A stretch of DNA of 64,000 nucleotides from Escherichia phage vB_EcoM_VR20. The notes beneath the pieces are model-generated. The model was not told the origin of the DNA. It saw nothing but the letters and a program-made list of their open reading frames with translations, and ran no database searches. How positions within the stretch are numbered: the stretch's first letter is position 1; each line of letters opens with the position of its first letter. Shown here in pieces: positions 799 to 57,563 of this stretch. The stretch lies in the sequence record NC_028894.1; one strand, 5' to 3'. Both the position numbers and the translations under genes were made by a program.

Positions 799-2082
799 AT
801 GCAAAAGATTAACGCACTAATTCACGAATCAACATTAACGGCGGCCAACCAGGTCGCCCGTCCTAATTTGCTTTCTTATACTCAGGCCACGAATAAACGA
901 ATTTTTAAAGCACTCGTGGCCGAACAGAAAACTACTCAGCCAGTTGCAGCGTTGTATGGTGTTCGTGTTCTGAACCCAGATGATAAAATGACATATCTTG
1001 GTGGAGCAACGTTTGCGGGTCAAATTGGTATGTTCGAGCGTAAGAATATTCCAGAATTTACAAACAAAGACGAAGCTTATGCAGTCGGCGATATGTTCCA
1101 GTTTGAAAGTGTTGTGTTCAAAGTTTTGGAAGCATCACCATTCGCCGGGACTCTTGAAACTGATTTGGGTGAAGTTATTTCTGAAGCCATTGCTGCTGGC
1201 CATATAAGAATGATGTCGGATGCGGCTTTCACTGATAAATTTGAACAAGGTCATCCTGAAATTGCTGAAGCCGGTTTCCGTATTGATAAATGGCAGACCG
1301 AAGTCAAATCCAGAAAGCTGAAAACTTCTTTAACGGTCGAGCTTGCACAGGACCTGGAAGCAAACGGTTTCGATGCAACAGACTTCATTGATAATATTCT
1401 CGGTATTCAGATGGCAGAGGAAATTAATAAGGATGTACTGCAATCCCTTATTACTGTCAGTTCTCGCTTCAAGGTGCAAGGTGTTTCTGAAAAAGGTGTA
1501 TTGAATCTAACTGACCCGAAATATGATAACGCTCAGGACCGTGCGCGAACCCTGTATTATTATATGTGTGAAATGAACTCCGCAGTTCAACGTCAGACTT
1601 CGTTTGCTGGTACATATGCAGTCGCTTCTTCCCGGTGTGCAGCTATTTTAGCAGCTTCTGGTTGGGTTGAGAAAAAGGAAGACCAGGATGAATTAGCCTA
1701 TGGCGTTCTGAAGAACGGTTTACCACTTTATGCAGATATGAATAGTCCATGTGATTATGTTATTGTTGGTGTAAATGCTGATATGGGTGAAGGTCAGACG
1801 GTCGCATCTTTGTATTATGCGCCTTATACGGAAGGACTTAGTGAAGTTGATGATGAGGGTGATACCTCGGTCGGGGAATTCAAGGTTATTGTTGACCCTG
1901 AAAGCTTGCAGCCTACTGTTGCGCTATTAGCTCGTTATGCATTGACAGCGAACCCTTATACGGTTGCGAAAGATGATAAAGAAGCTCGCATTATTGATGG
2001 TGCTGATATGGATAAGATGGCCAACCAAAGCCAATTGAGTTCTTATCTTGGTGTTAAACTTCCACCACTGGAAAAAGAATAA
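799..2082 (+). CDS. 24: Capsid vertex protein gp24
   Basis: 427 aa, same length as T4 gp24; ATG start; gp23-like fold paralog; followed by hairpin terminator. Confidence 0.88.
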   Translation: MQKINALIHESTLTAANQVARPNLLSYTQATNKRIFKALVAEQKTTQPVAALYGVRVLNPDDKMTYLGGATFAGQIGMFERKNIPEFTNKDEAYAVGDMFQFESVVFKVLEASPFAGTLETDLGEVISEAIAAGHIRMMSDAAFTDKFEQGHPEIAEAGFRIDKWQTEVKSRKLKTSLTVELAQDLEANGFDATDFIDNILGIQMAEEINKDVLQSLITVSSRFKVQGVSEKGVLNLTDPKYDNAQDRARTLYYYMCEMNSAVQRQTSFAGTYAVASSRCAAILAASGWVEKKEDQDELAYGVLKNGLPLYADMNSPCDYVIVGVNADMGEGQTVASLYYAPYTEGLSEVDDEGDTSVGEFKVIVDPESLQPTVALLARYALTANPYTVAKDDKEARIIDGADMDKMANQSQLSSYLGVKLPPLEKE

Positions 2083-15901: not shown

Positions 15902-17962
15902 CTACGAAAGGAATTTAGGAGGAATAGCTTCCAAATTAATACAACTAGCAAGAATACCAAGACCTTGATTGACTTTCTTCGTTACCCCAGAGGATGCAAA
16001 CGATGCAAAGTCAACAGATTCTACTGGCTCTTCTGTTTCCTCGCCCTGATAAACGACAAGCTCACCAGTTTCCATCAACACATCACCATCATAGATAACT
16101 GCATTTTCATCCAGTTGGTCCGTAGTCTGGATATCAGCTTCCAGCATTTTGACGTTCGCGTTTCCTTGATACGAAGCATCAGTAATTTTGGTAATCTTAA
16201 CTACAGTCCCACGAGGAAGAATAACTTCCTGCTCGGACGGGTTGCTTGACAATTCACCAGGAACAATTACGTTAATTAAGTCCGCCCCAGAAATTTTCCA
16301 ACCAACATGCATCATTACGTGGTCGCGGCGTGCATCCGGCATATCTGGTAAAACAATTTCGTCATCAGCCTGGAAAGATGTCCCATCACGATAGTCCTGA
16401 TGAACTGCAGCCATAGCAACGTTCGCCACCCAGCCACCAAAGATAATCGGTTTAAACGACGTTGATACATAGTTCCTGAAATAAAATAATTTAGATTTCT
16501 TAATTTTATCAAATGTAGGAACGTTTAAATATTGACCACGCCAAAGAGTTGTATTAGGCGGCAACTTATGTCCAATTTCAAAGGCCGAATCCAATTCCTT
16601 AATTGTTTCGACAACTCTGTCTAGATTTAGGAATTCAGCTTCTTCTTCATAATATTTGCCCATCAAATAATTATTAATATCGGCATAGTTTGCTCCACAA
16701 TAATCTGCAATTGCTTCTCGCTGGCCATAATGGAAACGGTTGTCAGTATACCCTGCTGTGAAATTAAGAGTATTTTCTGATGCTTCTTCGGCAAAGTCTT
16801 TAACTGCAACACGAATGGCGCTTGTGTATTCTTTTTCCCAGAGCGAGGCTGCATAAGTGGCTGCATCCAGGTTAGGAGGAGCATCATTCATTTTTCTTTC
16901 GATAAATGCGGCTTTGCGAAGGTTAAGAATCTCTGCACATGATTCGGCAAAAATCTGCATCTGCTTCATACTGCCAACAGGAGCACGTTTAAGTTCACGA
17001 TGCATACGGTTAAAAATTGGGTCAGAGTCTTCAATACGAATTTCTTCTTTCCAAACACCATTTGCTCGCATAGCCGCATCTGCTGCGCGCATACGAGCCA
17101 TAGTATTCGTTTCGGAAGGTCGAACAAAAATTTCCAGTTCTTCATAATCATCGATAAGTTCTGCCGTAGCCGGTCGACTAAACTTAGCAGCTTCTGCATC
17201 AATTTCGTCCCAGCCATCGGGCACGGAATCACTTGGAGCATACTGGGCTTGTGCAATAGCTCGGCGACTGATTTTAGTTTTCTGGGCAACAGCAGCATCG
17301 GTCTTTTTGTTTGCTGCGTCAATCAGAACTTCGGCTGCGATTTCTTGTTTGGAGACTTGTGCGCCTGTATCTTTATTAGTGAATACATCGCCAACTTTAG
17401 TTTCAACTTTTTGATATTTCTCAGGGACTGGTGGCATACCATCAACCGAAAGCAGGTCAACACCCTTTTTGTACATAATTACATAAGCGTTCTTTTTACC
17501 GAGGCCAGAAGCATTCGGAAGAACATGATAACGCCCGCTGGTTTTCATTTGAATCAGTCGATTCATAATACGAATAACAGCTTGGTCTTGCCCTTTCATT
17601 TTTTTGGATGGGAAACGGAACAAGACTACATCAGGTTTGCCTAGTTTAATGCTTTCCCAGACTGTAACAAAAATCAGGTTAATCGCATCAAGAGGTTTTT
17701 CACCTAGACCACCCTTCAGAGGAACAGCATGGCCATGTGAAGTCCCGGAGAGCAGGAATACCTCGGCAATTGCATCGCCGCGTTTATATTGTTTAACTGT
17801 TTCTTTGCCCGTGAATTGCATCAAACGGGCCATAAGAGAATTGGTCCCAGGAACACCGAATTGCCAAACCTGTGGGACCTTGTATTTCGGATTCATATTA
17901 ATGACAGGATAACCGAAGGCTTCGATATATTTGTCAAAGAGTTCATTTAATTGTTCAGACAT
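15902..17962 (-). CDS. alt: Alt, ADP-ribosyltransferase packaged in the head
   Basis: 686 aa (T4 682); position between gene 54 and gene 30. Confidence 0.75.
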   Translation of the reverse strand: MSEQLNELFDKYIEAFGYPVINMNPKYKVPQVWQFGVPGTNSLMARLMQFTGKETVKQYKRGDAIAEVFLLSGTSHGHAVPLKGGLGEKPLDAINLIFVTVWESIKLGKPDVVLFRFPSKKMKGQDQAVIRIMNRLIQMKTSGRYHVLPNASGLGKKNAYVIMYKKGVDLLSVDGMPPVPEKYQKVETKVGDVFTNKDTGAQVSKQEIAAEVLIDAANKKTDAAVAQKTKISRRAIAQAQYAPSDSVPDGWDEIDAEAAKFSRPATAELIDDYEELEIFVRPSETNTMARMRAADAAMRANGVWKEEIRIEDSDPIFNRMHRELKRAPVGSMKQMQIFAESCAEILNLRKAAFIERKMNDAPPNLDAATYAASLWEKEYTSAIRVAVKDFAEEASENTLNFTAGYTDNRFHYGQREAIADYCGANYADINNYLMGKYYEEEAEFLNLDRVVETIKELDSAFEIGHKLPPNTTLWRGQYLNVPTFDKIKKSKLFYFRNYVSTSFKPIIFGGWVANVAMAAVHQDYRDGTSFQADDEIVLPDMPDARRDHVMMHVGWKISGADLINVIVPGELSSNPSEQEVILPRGTVVKITKITDASYQGNANVKMLEADIQTTDQLDENAVIYDGDVLMETGELVVYQGEETEEPVESVDFASFASSGVTKKVNQGLGILASCINLEAIPPKFLS

Positions 17963-17987
17963 AATAGGTTCCTTATAAAATATGATG

Positions 17988-17995
17988 TATTTATA
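17988..17995 (-). promoter_or_regulatory. Late promoter TATAAATA upstream of alt
   Basis: Minus strand AGTATAAATACAT about 25 bp upstream of the alt ATG. Confidence 0.45.
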
Positions 17996-17996
17996 C

Positions 17997-18015
17997 TAAA
18001 AAAGGGCCGAAGCCC
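17997..18015 (-). terminator. UUCG hairpin terminator downstream of gene 30
   Basis: A-run, gggc-cgaa-gccc, then tttt. Confidence 0.55.
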
Positions 18016-18020
18016 TTTTG

Positions 18021-19553
18021 TTATTTTAATCCAGTCTTTGACCAGTCGCCAAATACATCTTCGAATGTGTCTGCATGGTCTTTATCGAAACGGAACCCTT
18101 TGATAATCGGCAGGAACAATGCAACCGTATTATCTTTACGAGTCTCGGAAGTCAACCAACCATTACATTCACAGTCGGCAATCATTCCAACCAATTCACC
18201 TTTACGGGCTTTAACCATCAAGGCTTCACGGTCCATTTCATGACGCTCCTCAATCGGAATAGTAACCCATTTTTTGGTTTTCTTATCTTTAACTTGAGTT
18301 GTGTCTTTAAAACCAGAACCACAGTTATTTGTAATCTTACCACAAGAAGAACGAAGCACAACACCACCAATCTTATTCGGGTCTTTATCGTGCTCGTAAT
18401 ATCCAATGATTTCCATTGCAATGTCAATTACTTCTTTGAACTTGTACAAGTTCTTTGAGCGCTTGTTTTCCCAAATCGATGCCATGTTCTTAAGGATAAT
18501 ACCTTCAAGACCTTCATCCACATATTTCTTATAGATAACCTTCGCTTCATCGAGATTGTTAACAACATGGTTTTCAATCAGAATCATGCGGTCAAAACCA
18601 TGCAGCACCACGTTATCTGCAATCATCTTTTCCAGAACAGCAAAACGCACATCGTATTTCAACGGATTGAGAATCTTAACATCAGAATAGACTTCAATCA
18701 GTGGAACATAATCCCAAACCTGGAATTTCATACAAGCAGCTTCTGTTGCCGAAATAGTTCCTTTCAATGATTTGTTTGCCAGACCATTTGAAAAGGTTCT
18801 TGATTCCGCAGTTTCTTGTGCAGGGGCAATCTCATTTGAATCGTCAAAAAGGAAGCCCAAACCGTCATTCTGGGGAGCTACTTTCTGTTCATGGTATACT
18901 AACTCACCGTCAATCAAAACGCCCTCAGGATGTCTCTCACGCGCTTCACGAGTAGCTTCAATCAATTCCTTTTTAAGGAGGTCAAGCTTGAGGTATTCGT
19001 TGCCAGCTCGGGATAACAATCGAACATCATCCAACTCATCGCCACGAACTTCTGCAAAACACCGAGCGCCGTCGGCTTTCAATTGTGCAAAGGCCGGGAA
19101 CTTAATGTTCTTGGCAATACCGGCTTCATCATAGGAAGAAGCGAGCATCTGCGGTTGTTCTGGAATTAAACCTTTCCAAACCTTATTTGCAATTGATACG
19201 GATGCCCCGCATTCCAGGTCACGCATCATCACACGGCGCAGGACTTCAACATCTGCTTTTTTACCATCGGCAATATAGCCAGATAATTCCTCGATTGCAG
19301 CATTACCTGTTAATTTACGAGAGGCCAATGTGAATTCGATAAAGTCAAGCATATCATCGATATTCAGCATACCAAAGCTTTGAGTCGTTGTTCCAGGTTT
19401 TGGCCATTTCTTGATATAGAACTGGATGCCTTTGGAATATGTCAAACGATACACACGTTTGAGGGTTTCATTGTCAGAATACGATTCCAGAATAGCTTGT
19501 TTCTCTTTAGTAGAATCGGTTGCAGCAATTTCATTTAAAATATCTAAAATCAT
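18021..19553 (-). CDS. 30: ATP-dependent DNA ligase gp30
   Basis: Adenylation motif KADGARC; strong recalled T4 ligase identity; ATG with AGAGGTGA Shine-Dalgarno. Confidence 0.9.
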   Translation of the reverse strand: MILDILNEIAATDSTKEKQAILESYSDNETLKRVYRLTYSKGIQFYIKKWPKPGTTTQSFGMLNIDDMLDFIEFTLASRKLTGNAAIEELSGYIADGKKADVEVLRRVMMRDLECGASVSIANKVWKGLIPEQPQMLASSYDEAGIAKNIKFPAFAQLKADGARCFAEVRGDELDDVRLLSRAGNEYLKLDLLKKELIEATREARERHPEGVLIDGELVYHEQKVAPQNDGLGFLFDDSNEIAPAQETAESRTFSNGLANKSLKGTISATEAACMKFQVWDYVPLIEVYSDVKILNPLKYDVRFAVLEKMIADNVVLHGFDRMILIENHVVNNLDEAKVIYKKYVDEGLEGIILKNMASIWENKRSKNLYKFKEVIDIAMEIIGYYEHDKDPNKIGGVVLRSSCGKITNNCGSGFKDTTQVKDKKTKKWVTIPIEERHEMDREALMVKARKGELVGMIADCECNGWLTSETRKDNTVALFLPIIKGFRFDKDHADTFEDVFGDWSKTGLK

Positions 19554-35499: not shown

Positions 35500-35799
35500 T
35501 TATGCGCCCAAATCCTCGAGCGAAAAGGTGTCTTTGAAAAGTTTGTTAACAACCAGAGCGATGATATCCCCATGACATGACTTTGGTTTGCATGTACAAG
35601 CTAATCGCATTCCGCGAAGGGTTTCAAGGTGTTCTCTTTTGATTTCACCCGATTTAATCTTTGATATGAAATATTCTTTAAAGTTCTTTATGTTTTCTTC
35701 TCGGGTACCATCTTTATATGGGTTTCCCCACATGGTACCCCGTTGAATATTCACATCAAAGTCGGATTGATATTTGTTAACAACCCGACAGGCTTTCAT
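35500..35799 (-). CDS. Conserved hypothetical protein, DUF4326-like (nrdA.1 region)
   Basis: 99 aa; MWGNPYK and CxCxxxxCHGD resemble the DUF4326 pattern as recalled. Confidence 0.45.
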   Translation of the reverse strand: MKACRVVNKYQSDFDVNIQRGTMWGNPYKDGTREENIKNFKEYFISKIKSGEIKREHLETLRGMRLACTCKPKSCHGDIIALVVNKLFKDTFSLEDLGA

Positions 35800-35860
35800 A
35801 GTAGGAAGTTAAGCCCGACCATTATGGCCAGAAATAAAATACCGGCAATTTGAATTTTCA

Positions 35861-36057
35861 TTATACCTCGACAATAAACCAGATAGACCGATTGAAATCA
35901 TCATATTCATACGATTTAATCACACGCATAACATAAAGTTCTTTACCCTGGACAAAAATCGTTGTTTTCTCTTTAGGCAGTTCATCGAGACTTATATTCA
36001 TTTTTTCAAACAGCACCTCATTGGTGCCGTATCTATTGTTTACTATACGAATATTCA

Positions 36058-36058
<1 letters not shown>
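35861..36058 (-). CDS. Hypothetical protein
   Basis: 65 aa; overlaps the td start. Confidence 0.4.
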
Positions 36059-37716
<1,658 letters not shown>

Positions 37717-38068: not shown

Positions 38069-38308
38069 TCACGCTTTCTTAGCGACTTTCCAGTCAGCTT
38101 TAAATTGGTCAACGTCAGAGTGATGAATCCAGAAACCAGATGAGCTACCATCTTCATAAAGAGGACAACCATCACACTCATCTTTCCAACCCATTGCACA
38201 CAAAGTTTCTTCAGCTTTTTCTAGAGCTTCTGGATTGTTACCCTGGATTGTGAAATACCATTTGCCTTTAACTTCTGAATCTTTGATGCTCTCACGTTGT
38301 AATTTCAT
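38069..38308 (-). CDS. Hypothetical protein
   Basis: 79 aa, acidic with cysteine pairs; preceded by the conserved leader repeat. Confidence 0.5.
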   Translation of the reverse strand: MKLQRESIKDSEVKGKWYFTIQGNNPEALEKAEETLCAMGWKDECDGCPLYEDGSSSGFWIHHSDVDQFKADWKVAKKA

Positions 38309-38400
38309 TTTATTCTCCAGTGTTTTAGTTGTTAACTCAGTATGGGACCATTATGTCATAGCCCCATTTGGTTGTACACTACTTTTTAAATTTTATCAAG
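38309..38400 (-). promoter_or_regulatory. Early promoter plus conserved leader repeat
   Basis: TTGTACACTACTTTTT upstream element, -10 CATAAT, leader ..CCCATACTGAGTTAACAACTAAAACACTGGAGAATAAAATG. Confidence 0.5.
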
Positions 38401-38640
38401 CCATTTTCCAAGTTTAGTCATTTCCTTGGTGGCCTTTTCCATACTTCTGAACTTAACTAATAAAGGATGAACATCCATACCCATCACCAGATTGGTTGCA
38501 AGACTATGTTCACCAACAAGCCATAATGAGTATGTTTGAACATCCAAACCATAATTTCTGTCTTTATGCAAACGCACACCCATCACTTCAAATTGCTCAC
38601 TCGCCTTTTCTACTGCATCCAGGAAATCATCTTTAGTCAT
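38386..38640 (-). CDS. Hypothetical protein
   Basis: 84 aa from the internal ATG; overlaps the upstream promoter cassette region. Confidence 0.4.
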   Translation of the reverse strand: MTKDDFLDAVEKASEQFEVMGVRLHKDRNYGLDVQTYSLWLVGEHSLATNLVMGMDVHPLLVKFRSMEKATKEMTKLGKWLDKI

Positions 38641-38641
38641 A

Positions 38642-39010
38642 TTAGACCTCAAAAGTTGCTTTAATCAGTGCAATGACTTCTGCGGCATTTTTGTGATTGA
38701 CTTGCACATGAATGGTTTGGGTATCAACATCAGGAGCATCACTATCAACTTCCAGGAAGTGACAGAATTCCCATTCAGCGAGTTCAAAGTACTCATCAGC
38801 GTCACACATACTATTCAGGATGGTACCATCTTTCATTTCAACTTTTTCAACAAAATAATCACCTTCAATATAACACATATCCAGGATTTTGAAGGAATTG
38901 CCGTGTTGTTCCATCAACTTGACCATGCACGAATTATCATCAGGACTACCAGCGATGAATTGTTTTTTAGCAGCAGGGTCTAATACGTAAAATTTACCAG
39001 TTTCCATCAT
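38642..39010 (-). CDS. Hypothetical protein, GKFY..AKKQFIAG paralog family
   Basis: Start MMETGKFY.. with GAGGAAATTAAA Shine-Dalgarno; 8-bp hairpin gggaacat/atgttccc upstream. Confidence 0.5.
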   Translation of the reverse strand: MMETGKFYVLDPAAKKQFIAGSPDDNSCMVKLMEQHGNSFKILDMCYIEGDYFVEKVEMKDGTILNSMCDADEYFELAEWEFCHFLEVDSDAPDVDTQTIHVQVNHKNAAEVIALIKATFEV

Positions 39011-39068: not shown

Positions 39069-39296
39069 CTAAGCTTGAATCAAGCCCATATAAAATTCAG
39101 CGTCTTCCGGGTGCATCCCTTCGCAATATTCATTTTGCATAAAGCGAGTAAGGTCTTCAAGAGGACCTTGAACTTCAATTTGAATACTAAAGAATTGGGT
39201 ATCTTTAATGTAAGTCATACACAAAGAAGGATACCGATTACGAATAACTTCGTAAGTGTATTCAAAATCAACGATATCAATATTAACCTTAGCCAT
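39069..39296 (-). CDS. Hypothetical protein
   Basis: 75 aa acidic; GAGGAAAATAAA Shine-Dalgarno; hairpin ggtctat..atagacc upstream. Confidence 0.5.
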
Positions 39297-39358: not shown

Positions 39359-39722
39359 CTATTTGAAGGCTTTTTGTAGAAGTTCAATGATTTGGTCGAC
39401 GTTATTAGCATCTACAACACAATTAATAGAAACCGCCCCTGAAGGTGTTTTTGTATAACTGGAGTATTCACGGAAGCAATAAAACTCTTCTTCACTAAGT
39501 TCAAAATAATCATCACCCATACCATCATCATTATAGATTGCACCATTAGCACAAATTATTTCGGTTACATAATCATAGCCGTCTGCACTTGATATTGATT
39601 TAACTTCAAAACCAATCACCATTTTCTTGGATGATGTCGACCATACTAGCATTCGATGAACTAATATCAATGAAAGATTTAATACGATGTGGATTGAACT
39701 CATATTTTTTGCCAATTTCCAT
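39359..39722 (-). pseudogene. Frameshifted paralog of the 38642 gene: 38-codon frame A (39606..39722) plus 80-codon frame B (39359..39605)
   Basis: Both halves align in register with the paralog; the frames break at UGG-UUU-UGA over the A4 run at 39608..39611. Confidence 0.45.
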
Positions 39723-39803
39723 TTTTATTTCCTCAGTGGTTATCAGTAGTTGATGGAATCATTATGCACCGGGTCAAGGGACTTGTACACTACTTTTTGA
39801 AAA
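39723..39803 (-). promoter_or_regulatory. Promoter cassette, near-duplicate of the one at 57450
   Basis: TGTACA-17-CATAAT; leader CATCAACTACTGATAACCACTGAGGAAATAAAAATG. Confidence 0.5.
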
Positions 39804-39826
39804 TAAAAAAGGGACCCGAAGGTCCC
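39804..39826 (-). terminator. UUCG hairpin terminator downstream of gene 32
   Basis: A-run then gggacc-cgaa-ggtccc. Confidence 0.6.
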
Positions 39827-39832
39827 CTTATA

Positions 39833-40744
39833 TTAAAGGCCAGCCAGAAGGTCGTCAAGACCATCATCAGAAGGCTCTGGAGTGCTTGGAGCAGTCGCAG
39901 TGCGTTCAGACTTAGCAGGTTTGCTGGAAGTGAAGTCTTCCATATCTTTATCAAAATCGTCCAGGTCAGCGCCCAGTTTATCGGCTTGCGCAGCAGCTTT
40001 AGAAGCAGCACCACCGAGAGCAGCTGTACCCATTACTTTAGCGAATTTCTTCTGATTCTCTTCAAGAGATTTAAATACCAGCAATTCATTCAGGTCAGAC
40101 ATTTCGTCCCAAAGTTTTTTCTGGAATGCTTCATCATTGATGCCAGCGATTTCAGACTGGTTCATGAATTTGGAATCATCGTAGTTTTTATAGCCGGAAA
40201 CCATTTTAGATTTCAGTACGAAGTTCGCACCTTCAAAAGGACAGGTTACATCAATAGCTGTTTCGCCCATGTCAACATCGACTTCAACCATCTGGTTGAT
40301 TTTGTCCATGATTTTCTTACCAAAGCGATATTTGAATACTTGGCCTTCGTTAGACGGAACAGCAGGGTCTTTAATGACCAGGATGTTAGCCCAGTAAGAA
40401 GTATTACGCTTCAGTTTACGATATTCGGATTCGTTTGTATTGTACAGGTCATTCTTATTCATGTACGCACACACAGGGCAGTTTTCATAATCGCCGTGAG
40501 TAGAAGTACAGTTTTCAATATACCATTGACCAGCATTTTTAAAGCCGTGGTTAACGAGCTTGATGAATGGAGATGGATTTTCTTCATTCTTAGAAGGCAG
40601 GAAACGAATAACCGCAGAGCCGACGCCATCAGTATCTTTCAGTTTCCATTCTTTTTTATCGTCAGAAGAGAAACCAGCACCACCTTTCAGTGCATTAAGG
40701 GAAGCAGCCAGGTCAGCAGGGTTTTTACGTTTAAACATAGACAT
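39833..40744 (-). CDS. 32: Single-stranded DNA-binding protein gp32
   Basis: 303 aa (T4 301); strong recalled identity; zinc ligand residues and acidic C-terminus. Confidence 0.92.
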
Positions 40745-48106: not shown

Positions 48107-48126
48107 GGACCTTCGGGTCCTTTTTT
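48107..48126 (+). terminator. UUCG hairpin terminator after gene 35
   Basis: ggacc-ttcg-ggtcc followed by TTTTTT. Confidence 0.6.
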
Positions 48127-57449: not shown

Positions 57450-57540
57450 TTTATTCTCCAAAGTTTTTGTGATTCAGTGTGTAACTCAGTATGGAATCAT
57501 TATGCATCAGGTCAAGGGAATTGTACACTACTTTTTAAAA
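57450..57540 (-). promoter_or_regulatory. Promoter cassette, near-duplicate of the one at 39723
   Basis: AAAAAGTAGTGTACAATTCCCTTGACCTGATGCATAATGATTCCATACTGAGTTACAC. Confidence 0.5.
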
Positions 57541-57541
57541 T

Positions 57542-57563
57542 AAAAAAGGACCCCGAAGGGTCC
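57542..57563 (-). terminator. UUCG hairpin terminator
   Basis: A-run then ggaccc-cgaa-gggtcc. Confidence 0.55.

What the first reader, a model, noticed from the sequence alone, without database searches (positions are those of the whole stretch)
39359..39722. Paralogous gene split at UGG-UUU-UGA: candidate +1 frameshift or fresh pseudogene
The gene upstream of gene 32 is a paralog of the ORF at 38642..39010, but its first 38 codons (MEIGKKYEF..ENGDWF) and last 80 codons (EVKSISSADGYDYV..) are in different frames. Both halves align in register with the paralog. The break is at UUU-UGA over a 4-nt A run at 39608..39611, the same architecture as the prfB +1 site (re-pairing codon followed by an in-frame stop). 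A GGUGAU element sits a few nt upstream.
Basis: partly seen in the sequence, partly recalled or inferred. Interest (0 to 1): 0.65.

Follow-up and report, generated by a model that had tools for sequence, protein, structure and literature searches.

The report
One-base insertion splitting phage gene frd.2a
A small, dispensable early gene of a T4-like phage is split by one extra T that no related genome carries, so it is a fresh mutation or a sequencing error, and its likeness to a programmed frameshift site follows automatically from that insertion.

Summary
On the minus strand, a 38-codon ORF (39722..39606) and the last 82 codons of a +1-frame ORF (39607..39359) together encode a complete FRD2-family protein (Pfam PF03197, 120 bits). 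It is a paralog of the ORF at 38642..39010 (31% identity, E=4e-15). The break is TGG-TTT-TGA, over the A4 run at 39608..39611.

The split is private to this genome. All nine Gaprivervirus relatives examined, plus T4 and an IMG/VR contig, read TGG-TTT-GAA with an intact ORF (120 codons in the Gaprivervirus relatives). None of 154 phage records matching the site is identical across it. All 60 listed matches are one base shorter. Exact searches for the 4-T allele found nothing in four collections, while the 3-T controls found relatives.

Inserting one T into TTT-GAA necessarily creates both UUU-U and UGA. The GGUGAU element is simply Gly-Asp codons, also present in the intact SP18 gene. No RNA structure is present.

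Once repaired, the gene differs from relatives mostly by synonymous changes. No other annotated gene in the roughly 49 kb of the window compared is frame-broken, and homopolymer lengths show no sign of a sequencing-error pattern.

Verdict: a fresh one-base frameshift lesion (about 50%) or an isolated base-call error (about 40%). It is not a conserved programmed +1 site. Low-level accidental +1 slippage remains possible. Interest is low.

The parts
39606..39722 (-). frd.2a, 5' part: 38 codons (MEIGKK...ENGDWF) followed by a TGA stop at 39608..39606
   Evidence: It is 97-100% identical to residues 1-38 of the intact CJ20 and SP18 Frd.2a.
39608..39611 (-). T4 run (A4 on the plus strand). It is one T longer than the T3 run found in all relatives, and it is the only frame-disrupting difference.
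   Evidence: Alignment. Site strings of 11 relatives. No match for the T4 allele.
39359..39607 (-). frd.2a, 3' part in the +1 frame: 82 codons (EVKSISS...LLQKAFK) followed by a TAG stop
   Evidence: It is 98.8% identical to residues 38-120 of CJ20 and SP18 Frd.2a. The Pfam FRD2 match spans the junction.
39615..39620 (-). GGTGAT (Gly36-Asp37 codons), complementary to the AUCACC stretch near the 3' end of 16S rRNA.
   Evidence: Sequence. The same hexamer is in the intact SP18 gene, while other relatives read GGCGGT or GGTGGT.
39620..39622 (-). ATG in the +1 frame, 11 nt upstream of the TGA. It is a possible but poorly signalled restart codon for an 87-aa C-terminal fragment (MVIGFEVKS...).
   Evidence: Sequence. 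There is no GGAGG-like element upstream of it, only CAAGAAA. Any use of it is inference.
39761..39789 (-). Promoter-like site (TGTACA-17-CATAAT) upstream of frd.2a. The ribosome-binding GAGG lies at 39734..39731.
   Evidence: (a consensus scan only) and the sequence.
39808..39829 (-). Terminator-like hairpin after gene 32. It separates gene 32 from frd.2a.
38642..39010 (-). frd.2b, the intact paralog (122 aa, Pfam FRD2)
39069..39296 (-). frd.3 (75 aa, Pfam Phage_FRD3), lying between the two frd.2 paralogs

Best explanation
The window comes from a T4-like phage of the genus Gaprivervirus (SP18/CJ20 group). The gene at 39359..39722 is frd.2a. It is one of two paralogous copies of the T4 early gene frd.2, whose function is unknown and whose N-terminal domain is predicted to have an LSm-like fold.

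In this genome alone, a run of three T's (Phe38 codon TTT, followed by GAA) has gained a fourth T. This is most simply explained by replication slippage in a mononucleotide run, the classic Streisinger mechanism. Translation from the normal start therefore ends at UGA after 38 residues, inside the LSm-like domain. The remaining 82 codons are left in the +1 frame without a good ribosome-binding site of their own.

The lesion is very recent. It is not a selected recoding signal. The gene can be lost because T4 frd.2 amber mutants plate normally under laboratory conditions and an intact paralog, frd.2b, lies about 350 bp downstream.

Shown: the insertion, its uniqueness to this genome, and the integrity of the rest of the gene. 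Inferred: that the extra base exists in the phage DNA rather than only in the assembly, and that the gene is functionally inactivated.
For: - Identity and context. Searches show that the orthologous locus in SP18, DCP80 and CJ20 is an intact 363-nt gene (annotated frd.2a in SP18, hypothetical protein in the other two), and that T4 frd.2 is also intact.
- The difference. In one search the only frame-disrupting difference from the relatives is TGG-TTTT-GAA against TGG-TTT-GAA. In one search all nine Gaprivervirus relatives, T4T and one IMG/VR contig read TGGTTTGAA with no internal stops.
- Uniqueness. In one search none of the 154 matching phage records is identical across the site, and every one of the 60 listed alignments is exactly one base shorter than the query. 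Searches find no record with an exact 28-mer spanning a 4-T run, in either sequence background. The 3-T control finds 60 records. The 4-T allele is also absent from IMG/VR, metagenome contigs and GTDB genomes, while the 3-T allele is present.
- Protein databases. The split products are not on record. No database protein matches the out-of-frame N-terminal extension.
- Freshness. In one search the repaired gene differs from the Gaprivervirus relatives by 6-9 synonymous against 1-4 non-synonymous codon changes, with no further lesion.
- Assembly quality. In one search, frd.2a is the only annotated gene with a frame change across the roughly 49 kb of the window that aligns to CJ20 and SP18. In one search the window has 4 private homopolymer lengths among 2152 comparable runs, within the 0-7 range seen for eight relatives. 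The other three private lengths are intergenic. The assembly therefore shows no homopolymer-error signature, which mildly favours a real mutation.
- Dispensability. PMC12152347 reports that T4 frd.2 amber mutants have similar plating efficiency on suppressing and non-suppressing hosts.
Against: - No reads are available, so a single base-call or consensus error cannot be excluded. It would look identical at the sequence level.
- A CRISPRi-ART screen scored T4 frd.2 as a fitness gene (PMC11879866). That makes outright loss somewhat less expected, although this phage has a second copy.
- The created site, UUU-UGA, is intrinsically prone to slipping, so the gene may not be completely silent.
Confidence: 0.5

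Rival explanations
1. Sequencing or assembly artefact. The phage really has TTT and an intact 120-codon frd.2a, and the fourth T is a consensus error in a homopolymer.
For: - The allele is a singleton among all relatives and collections searched.
- Removing one base restores a protein 99% identical to SP18 Frd.2a, with a mostly synonymous divergence pattern.
- Database entries with frame-scrambled frd.2 do exist. P0010, a 90-aa product from a T4 record, is read in several frames.
Against: - The assembly otherwise looks clean. No other annotated gene is frame-broken.
- There is no excess of private homopolymer lengths (4 of 2152, against 0-7 in relatives).
- A 3-to-4 run is short for the usual homopolymer error modes, which mainly affect runs of 5 or more. 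This last point rests on general knowledge.
Confidence: 0.4
2. Programmed, selected +1 ribosomal frameshift of the prfB type. The peptidyl-tRNA-Phe on UUU would slip to the overlapping UUU while UGA waits in the A site, helped by pairing of GGUGAU with the anti-Shine-Dalgarno sequence of 16S rRNA. The result would be regulated synthesis of full-length Frd.2a.
For: - The sequence alone shows UUU_UGA with perfect re-pairing in the +1 frame.
- A 6-nt complement to the 16S 3' end sits one codon upstream.
- The +1 product is a complete family member.
- prfB uses CUU_UGA with a Shine-Dalgarno (SD) sequence 3 nt upstream (PMC10798248).
Against: - Conservation, the hallmark of programmed sites, is absent. 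No relative found has the site.
- Every 'signal' either predates the insertion in intact genes or is created by it.
- GGUGAU pairs with 16S nucleotides 1531-1536. The base that pairs with C1535 therefore lies 7 nt from the P-site codon, against 3 nt in prfB. That is a relaxed geometry rather than a compressed one. This is an inference from the 16S sequence.
- The stop context is UGA-A rather than the UGA-C of prfB.
- No RNA structure is present (z = 0.07).
- There is no conceivable autoregulatory logic of the kind that links RF2 to UGA.
Confidence: 0.03
3. The lesion is real and is partly rescued by chance. A few per cent of ribosomes slip +1 at UUU_UGA, or reinitiate at the +1-frame AUG at 39622..39620. 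The phage would then still make a little full-length Frd.2a or a C-terminal fragment. This would be adventitious 'compensatory' frameshifting on a fresh indel.
For: - UUU followed by a pyrimidine is a documented error-prone +1 site in E. coli (Fu and Parker 1994; Schwartz and Curran 1997). These are cited from the reference lists of PMC5009743 and PMC4914553, and the efficiencies are from memory.
- A stop codon in the A site prolongs the pause.
- Compensatory frameshifting on indels is a recognised class (PMC5009743).
Against: - It has not been measured.
- UGA-A is not a notably weak terminator.
- No stimulatory element is in a validated register.
- The AUG lacks an SD sequence.
- This explanation is moot if the extra T is an artefact.
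Confidence: 0.15

Closest known systems
Bacteriophage T4 Frd.2 (Pfam FRD2, PF03197), the early gene downstream of gene 32
   Same: - The repaired protein scores 120 bits against PF03197.
- It is 83% identical to T4 Frd.2 in the multiple alignment.
- It occupies the same 32-to-frd gene cluster.
- T4 Frd.2 is an early protein with a predicted LSm-like N-terminal domain (PMC12152347).
   Different: - The gene is duplicated here as frd.2a and frd.2b.
- The 2a copy is interrupted at codon 38 by a 1-nt insertion seen in no other genome.
E. coli prfB (RF2) programmed +1 frameshift site: CUU_UGA_C with an AGGGGG SD sequence 3 nt upstream
   Same: - A P-site codon that can re-pair one base downstream within a U run.
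- An immediately following in-frame UGA.
- An SD-like hexamer one codon upstream.
   Different: - The site is not conserved in any ortholog.
- It is created in its entirety by one inserted base.
- The SD-like element pairs with a different part of the 16S tail, giving an aligned spacing of about 7 nt rather than 3 nt.
- The stop context is UGA-A rather than UGA-C.
- There is no autoregulatory rationale.
Streisinger-type frameshift mutations in T4 homopolymer runs (rII and e genes), and ordinary homopolymer pseudogenes
   Same: - A +1 insertion within a mononucleotide run.
- Orthologs are intact.
- The gene is otherwise undamaged.
   Different: Nothing of substance differs. The only open point is whether the base is in the DNA or only in the assembly.
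'Savior' or compensated indels, such as the herpesvirus thymidine kinase G-run indel with low-level frameshifting (reviewed in PMC5009743). Also error-prone +1 shifting at UUU-Y sites such as argI.
   Same: An indel in a homopolymer creates a site at which rare slippage could restore the frame.
   Different: - The run here is only four bases long.
- No evidence of a shifted product exists.
- No selective advantage of the indel is known.

Membership tests
prfB-type programmed +1 frameshift site | A slippery P-site codon that can re-pair in the +1 frame, directly followed by an in-frame stop codon | tested here: met
   UGG UUU UGA, with a U4 run. The feature follows automatically from inserting a T into TTT-GAA.
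prfB-type programmed +1 frameshift site | Conservation of the shift site, meaning two overlapping frames, among orthologs | tested here: not met
   All 11 orthologs examined have one frame and three T's. None of 154 phage records is identical across the site, and all 60 listed alignments are one base shorter. No exact match to the 4-T allele was found in four collections.
prfB-type programmed +1 frameshift site | A Shine-Dalgarno-like stimulator at the short, compressed spacing (3 nt from the base that pairs with 16S C1535 to the P-site codon) | tested here: not met
   GGUGAU lies literally 3 nt upstream but pairs with 16S nucleotides 1531-1536. The aligned spacing from the C1535 partner to UUU is therefore 7 nt (sequence, plus inference from the 16S 3' end). 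PMC10798248 states the 3-nt rule for prfB. The hexamer is also present in the intact SP18 gene.
prfB-type programmed +1 frameshift site | A frameshifted full-length product made in vivo | not testable with these tools
   This needs a reporter assay or mass spectrometry.
FRD2 protein family (Pfam PF03197) | Score above the Pfam gathering threshold | tested here: met
   The repaired protein scores 120.4 bits against a cut-off of 29, over residues 26-120. The paralog scores 111.1 bits.
FRD2 protein family (Pfam PF03197) | Encoded as one uninterrupted ORF in the gene 32-to-frd cluster | tested here: not met
   The synteny is met, but the ORF in the window is interrupted at codon 38.
Recent frameshift pseudogene or homopolymer indel | An indel of length not divisible by 3 in a mononucleotide run, with intact orthologs and no secondary lesions | tested here: met
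   The ratio of synonymous to non-synonymous codon differences is 6/1 to 9/2 against most relatives.
Recent frameshift pseudogene or homopolymer indel | The extra base is present in the phage DNA, with read-level support | not testable with these tools
   No reads are available. Indirect evidence is that the assembly shows no other broken gene and no excess of private homopolymer lengths.

The most novel reading that the evidence does not exclude
The extra T is real. The UUU_UGA site it created, with GGUGAU one codon upstream, would then support appreciable +1 slippage (1% or more) by tRNA-Phe in E. coli, so that the phage still makes some full-length Frd.2a. This would be a natural snapshot of a just-born, not yet selected, prfB-like frameshift site compensating a fresh indel.
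Probability: 0.12. Interest if true: 0.35.

Novelty: already known. Interest (0 to 1): 0.1.

Why it matters
It matters little biologically. At most, one redundant copy of a dispensable early gene has been inactivated in one phage isolate.

Practically, the locus should be annotated as a frameshifted frd.2a, or corrected after resequencing. It should not be annotated as two small ORFs or as a recoding event.

The case is also a useful caution. A one-base insertion in a homopolymer that precedes 'GA' will always mimic the slippery-codon-plus-stop look of prfB. Conservation, not architecture, has to be the test.

Tried and rejected
- **Stimulatory RNA structure.** Folding 39530..39650 on the minus strand gave a z-score of 0.07 against shuffles, so no structure is present.
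- **Transcriptional slippage.** Rejected, because a 4-nt run is far shorter than the runs of about 7 or more known to support it. This rests on general knowledge and PMC5009743.
- **The same split in other assemblies.**
  - Exact-product look-ups for the 38-aa and 87-aa products found nothing.
  - A homology search with the 118-aa +1-frame ORF found only intact proteins of 119-129 aa covering its in-frame 70%. The one exception was a multiply frame-scrambled product from a T4 record.
- **A general homopolymer-error signature in the window.** None was found.
- **Contingency or phase-variable locus.** Rejected, because the run is too short and is invariant (T3) in all relatives.
- **Two separately functional half-genes.** Rejected as unlikely. 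The break falls inside the predicted LSm-like N-terminal domain (residues 1-88 in T4 Frd.2; PMC12152347), and the second half lacks a ribosome-binding site.
- **Papers not held.** Schwartz and Curran 1997 and Devaraj and Fredrick 2010 could not be read. Statements about UUU-Y efficiencies and spacing dependence are therefore from memory or from secondary citation.
- **Codon counts not used.** The synonymous and non-synonymous counts printed for T4T and the IMG/VR contig are not meaningful beyond nt 257, because the C-terminal regions carry indels.

Full report
**1. What the window is and what sits at the site**

The region around the finding is the gene 32-to-frd cluster of a T4-like phage, with all genes on the minus strand:

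| Gene | Coordinates | Notes |
|---|---|---|
| gene 32 | 39833..40744 | 303 aa |
| the split gene | 39359..39722 | the finding |
| frd.3 | 39069..39296 | Pfam Phage_FRD3 |
| second FRD2-family gene | 38642..39010 | the paralog |
| 88-aa ORF | 38386..38652 | no Pfam match |
| frd.1 | 38069..38308 | DUF5417 |
| frd (dihydrofolate reductase) | 36915..37508 | |

The closest public genomes belong to the genus Gaprivervirus (SP18, CJ20, DCP80 and the TH series). They are 94-97% identical in DNA, and none is identical. In SP18 the orthologous gene is annotated frd.2a and the paralog frd.2b.

**2. Checking the observation**

- The minus strand reads ...CAA GAA AAT GGT GAT TGG TTT TGA AGT TAA... in the frame of the ATG at 39722. 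This gives a 38-residue product that ends at the TGA at 39608..39606.
- One base further on, the frame ...TTT GAA GTT AAA TCA... stays open to the TAG at 39361..39359. It encodes 82 residues beginning EVKSISS.
- Joining the two parts by dropping one T gives a 120-aa protein. It matches Pfam FRD2 across the junction (residues 26-120, 120.4 bits).
- This protein is 99% identical to SP18 Frd.2a and 83% identical to T4 Frd.2. It is 31% identical (E=4e-15) to the neighbouring paralog, in register on both sides of the break.

The corrections are small: 82 codons rather than 80, and the gene is transcriptionally downstream of gene 32, not upstream.

**3. Is the split conserved?**

It is not.

- A four-way DNA alignment shows a single frame-disrupting difference. 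The window has TGG-TTTT-GAA where SP18, DCP80 and CJ20 have TGG-TTT-GAA.
- I extracted the ortholog from nine Gaprivervirus genomes, T4T and one IMG/VR contig. All read TGGTTTGAA and have no internal stop.
- A 91-nt query centred on the site hit 154 phage records. None was 100% identical, and each of the 60 listed alignments is exactly one base shorter than the query.
- I then used 40-nt queries designed so that every 28-mer seed must span a four-T run. Both the window's GGTGAT background and the common GGCGGT background gave no match. The three-T control returned 60 records, 58 of them at 99% identity or better.
- The four-T allele is also absent from IMG/VR, JGI metagenome contigs and GTDB genomes. 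The three-T allele is present in IMG/VR and in metagenome contigs.
- Neither split product is on record as a called protein.
- A homology search with the 118-aa +1-frame ORF found only proteins covering its in-frame 70%, with lengths of 119-129 aa. The one exception is a 90-aa entry from a T4 record that is itself read in several frames.

**4. Why the site looks like prfB**

The intact SP18 gene reads GGT GAT TGG TTT GAA. Inserting one T anywhere in the TTT run produces all three features at once: UUU followed by U (the re-pairing codon), UGA (T plus the GA of the next codon), and the pre-existing GGUGAU one codon upstream. None of the three 'signals' is therefore independent evidence of selection.

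Most relatives carry GGCGGT or GGTGGT (Gly-Gly) at that place, so the hexamer is not conserved even as sequence.

In prfB, the SD sequence whose 3' G pairs with 16S C1535 lies 3 nt from the P-site codon, and this short spacing is what drives the shift (PMC10798248). Here GGUGAU pairs with 16S nucleotides 1531-1536, so the partner of C1535 lies 7 nt from UUU. That is a relaxed, initiation-like register. This is my inference from the 16S 3' sequence.

The stop context is UGA-A, not the UGA-C of prfB. The surrounding RNA has no structure beyond chance (z = 0.07).

**5. Real mutation or artefact?**

Reads are not available, so I looked for indirect signs.

- I took ORFs from the CJ20 and SP18 regions and mapped them by tblastn onto the window. 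frd.2a is the only annotated gene whose match changes frame. The other flagged cases are unannotated or antisense ORFs, or lie upstream of the annotated start (read against the annotation).
- All other 1- or 2-nt indels relative to CJ20 and SP18 lie in intergenic terminator or promoter stretches, or are compensated pairs within divergent segments.
- With exact 12-nt flanks, the window has 4 homopolymer runs of private length among 2152 comparable runs. This is within the 0-7 range seen when each of eight relatives is made the focal genome. The other three private runs are intergenic.

The assembly is therefore not riddled with homopolymer errors. This mildly favours a real mutation, but it cannot exclude one isolated miscall.

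The repaired gene differs from the Gaprivervirus relatives by 6-9 synonymous and 1-4 non-synonymous codon changes, and it has no second lesion. If the break is real, it is very recent.

**6. Biological context**

- T4 frd.2 is an early gene of unknown function. Its N-terminal domain (residues 1-88) is predicted to have an LSm-like fold.
- Amber mutants plate normally (PMC12152347), although a CRISPRi-ART screen scored the gene as contributing to fitness (PMC11879866).
- The break at codon 38 lies inside that domain, so neither fragment is likely to fold.
- This phage has an intact second copy, frd.2b, about 350 bp downstream. That should buffer the loss.

**7. Mechanism and rivals**

- **Best explanation (about 0.5).** A Streisinger-type +1 slippage during replication added a T. 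Translation stops at UGA after 38 residues, and the gene is a fresh pseudogene.
- **Rival (about 0.4).** The extra T exists only in the assembly.
- **Programmed +1 frameshifting (about 0.03).** This is essentially excluded by the lack of conservation.
- **Accidental rescue (about 0.12-0.15, and only if the base is real).** UUU_U is a documented error-prone +1 site in E. coli (Fu and Parker 1994; Schwartz and Curran 1997; known to me from memory and from the reference lists of PMC5009743 and PMC4914553). A stop codon in the A site lengthens the pause, so a low level of accidental, compensatory +1 shifting could occur. A weakly signalled +1-frame AUG at 39622..39620 could also allow some reinitiation.

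**8. Verdict**

This is an ordinary, already known kind of event, and interest is low (0.1). Resequencing the site settles the matter.

Noticed in passing
window 35504..36048: About 545 bp between td (36058..36918, minus strand) and nrdA has no counterpart in CJ20 or SP18. It carries two minus-strand ORFs: 35500..35799 (99 aa, Pfam DUF4326, E=2e-21) and 35861..36058 (65 aa, no Pfam match). It looks like a small accessory-gene insertion.
   Followed up: partly
window 39069..39296; L001 (SP18) 1973..2039: frd.3 lies between frd.2a and frd.2b in the window, CJ20 and DCP80, but is absent from SP18. SP18 has a segG homing-endonuclease gene between genes 32 and 59, which is absent from CJ20 and DCP80. 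This is local gene-content mosaicism around gene 32.
   Followed up: no
protein P0010 (from a GenBank 'Escherichia phage T4' record, locus T4583L_241): This 90-aa Frd.2 homolog has an N-terminus, an internal EEE stretch and a C-terminus that are each read out of register. The deposited sequence is multiply frameshifted. It is an example showing that split frd.2 genes in databases can be sequence-quality artefacts.
   Followed up: partly
L006 (SP18) 17466..18216: SP18 annotates the host-transcription inhibitor alc as two ORFs, alca and alcb. The window's alc region shows no frame change relative to CJ20.
   Followed up: no
window 48121..48126, 57532..57536 and 57542..57547: These three intergenic homopolymer runs, next to terminator-like G+C hairpins, have lengths private to the window among nine genomes. 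This is probably ordinary intergenic length variation.
   Followed up: no
window 38386..38652 (minus strand): An 88-aa ORF that overlaps the end of frd.2b by a few codons. It is conserved in CJ20 and SP18 (annotated as a hypothetical protein similar to JS98 gp232) and has no Pfam match.
   Followed up: no
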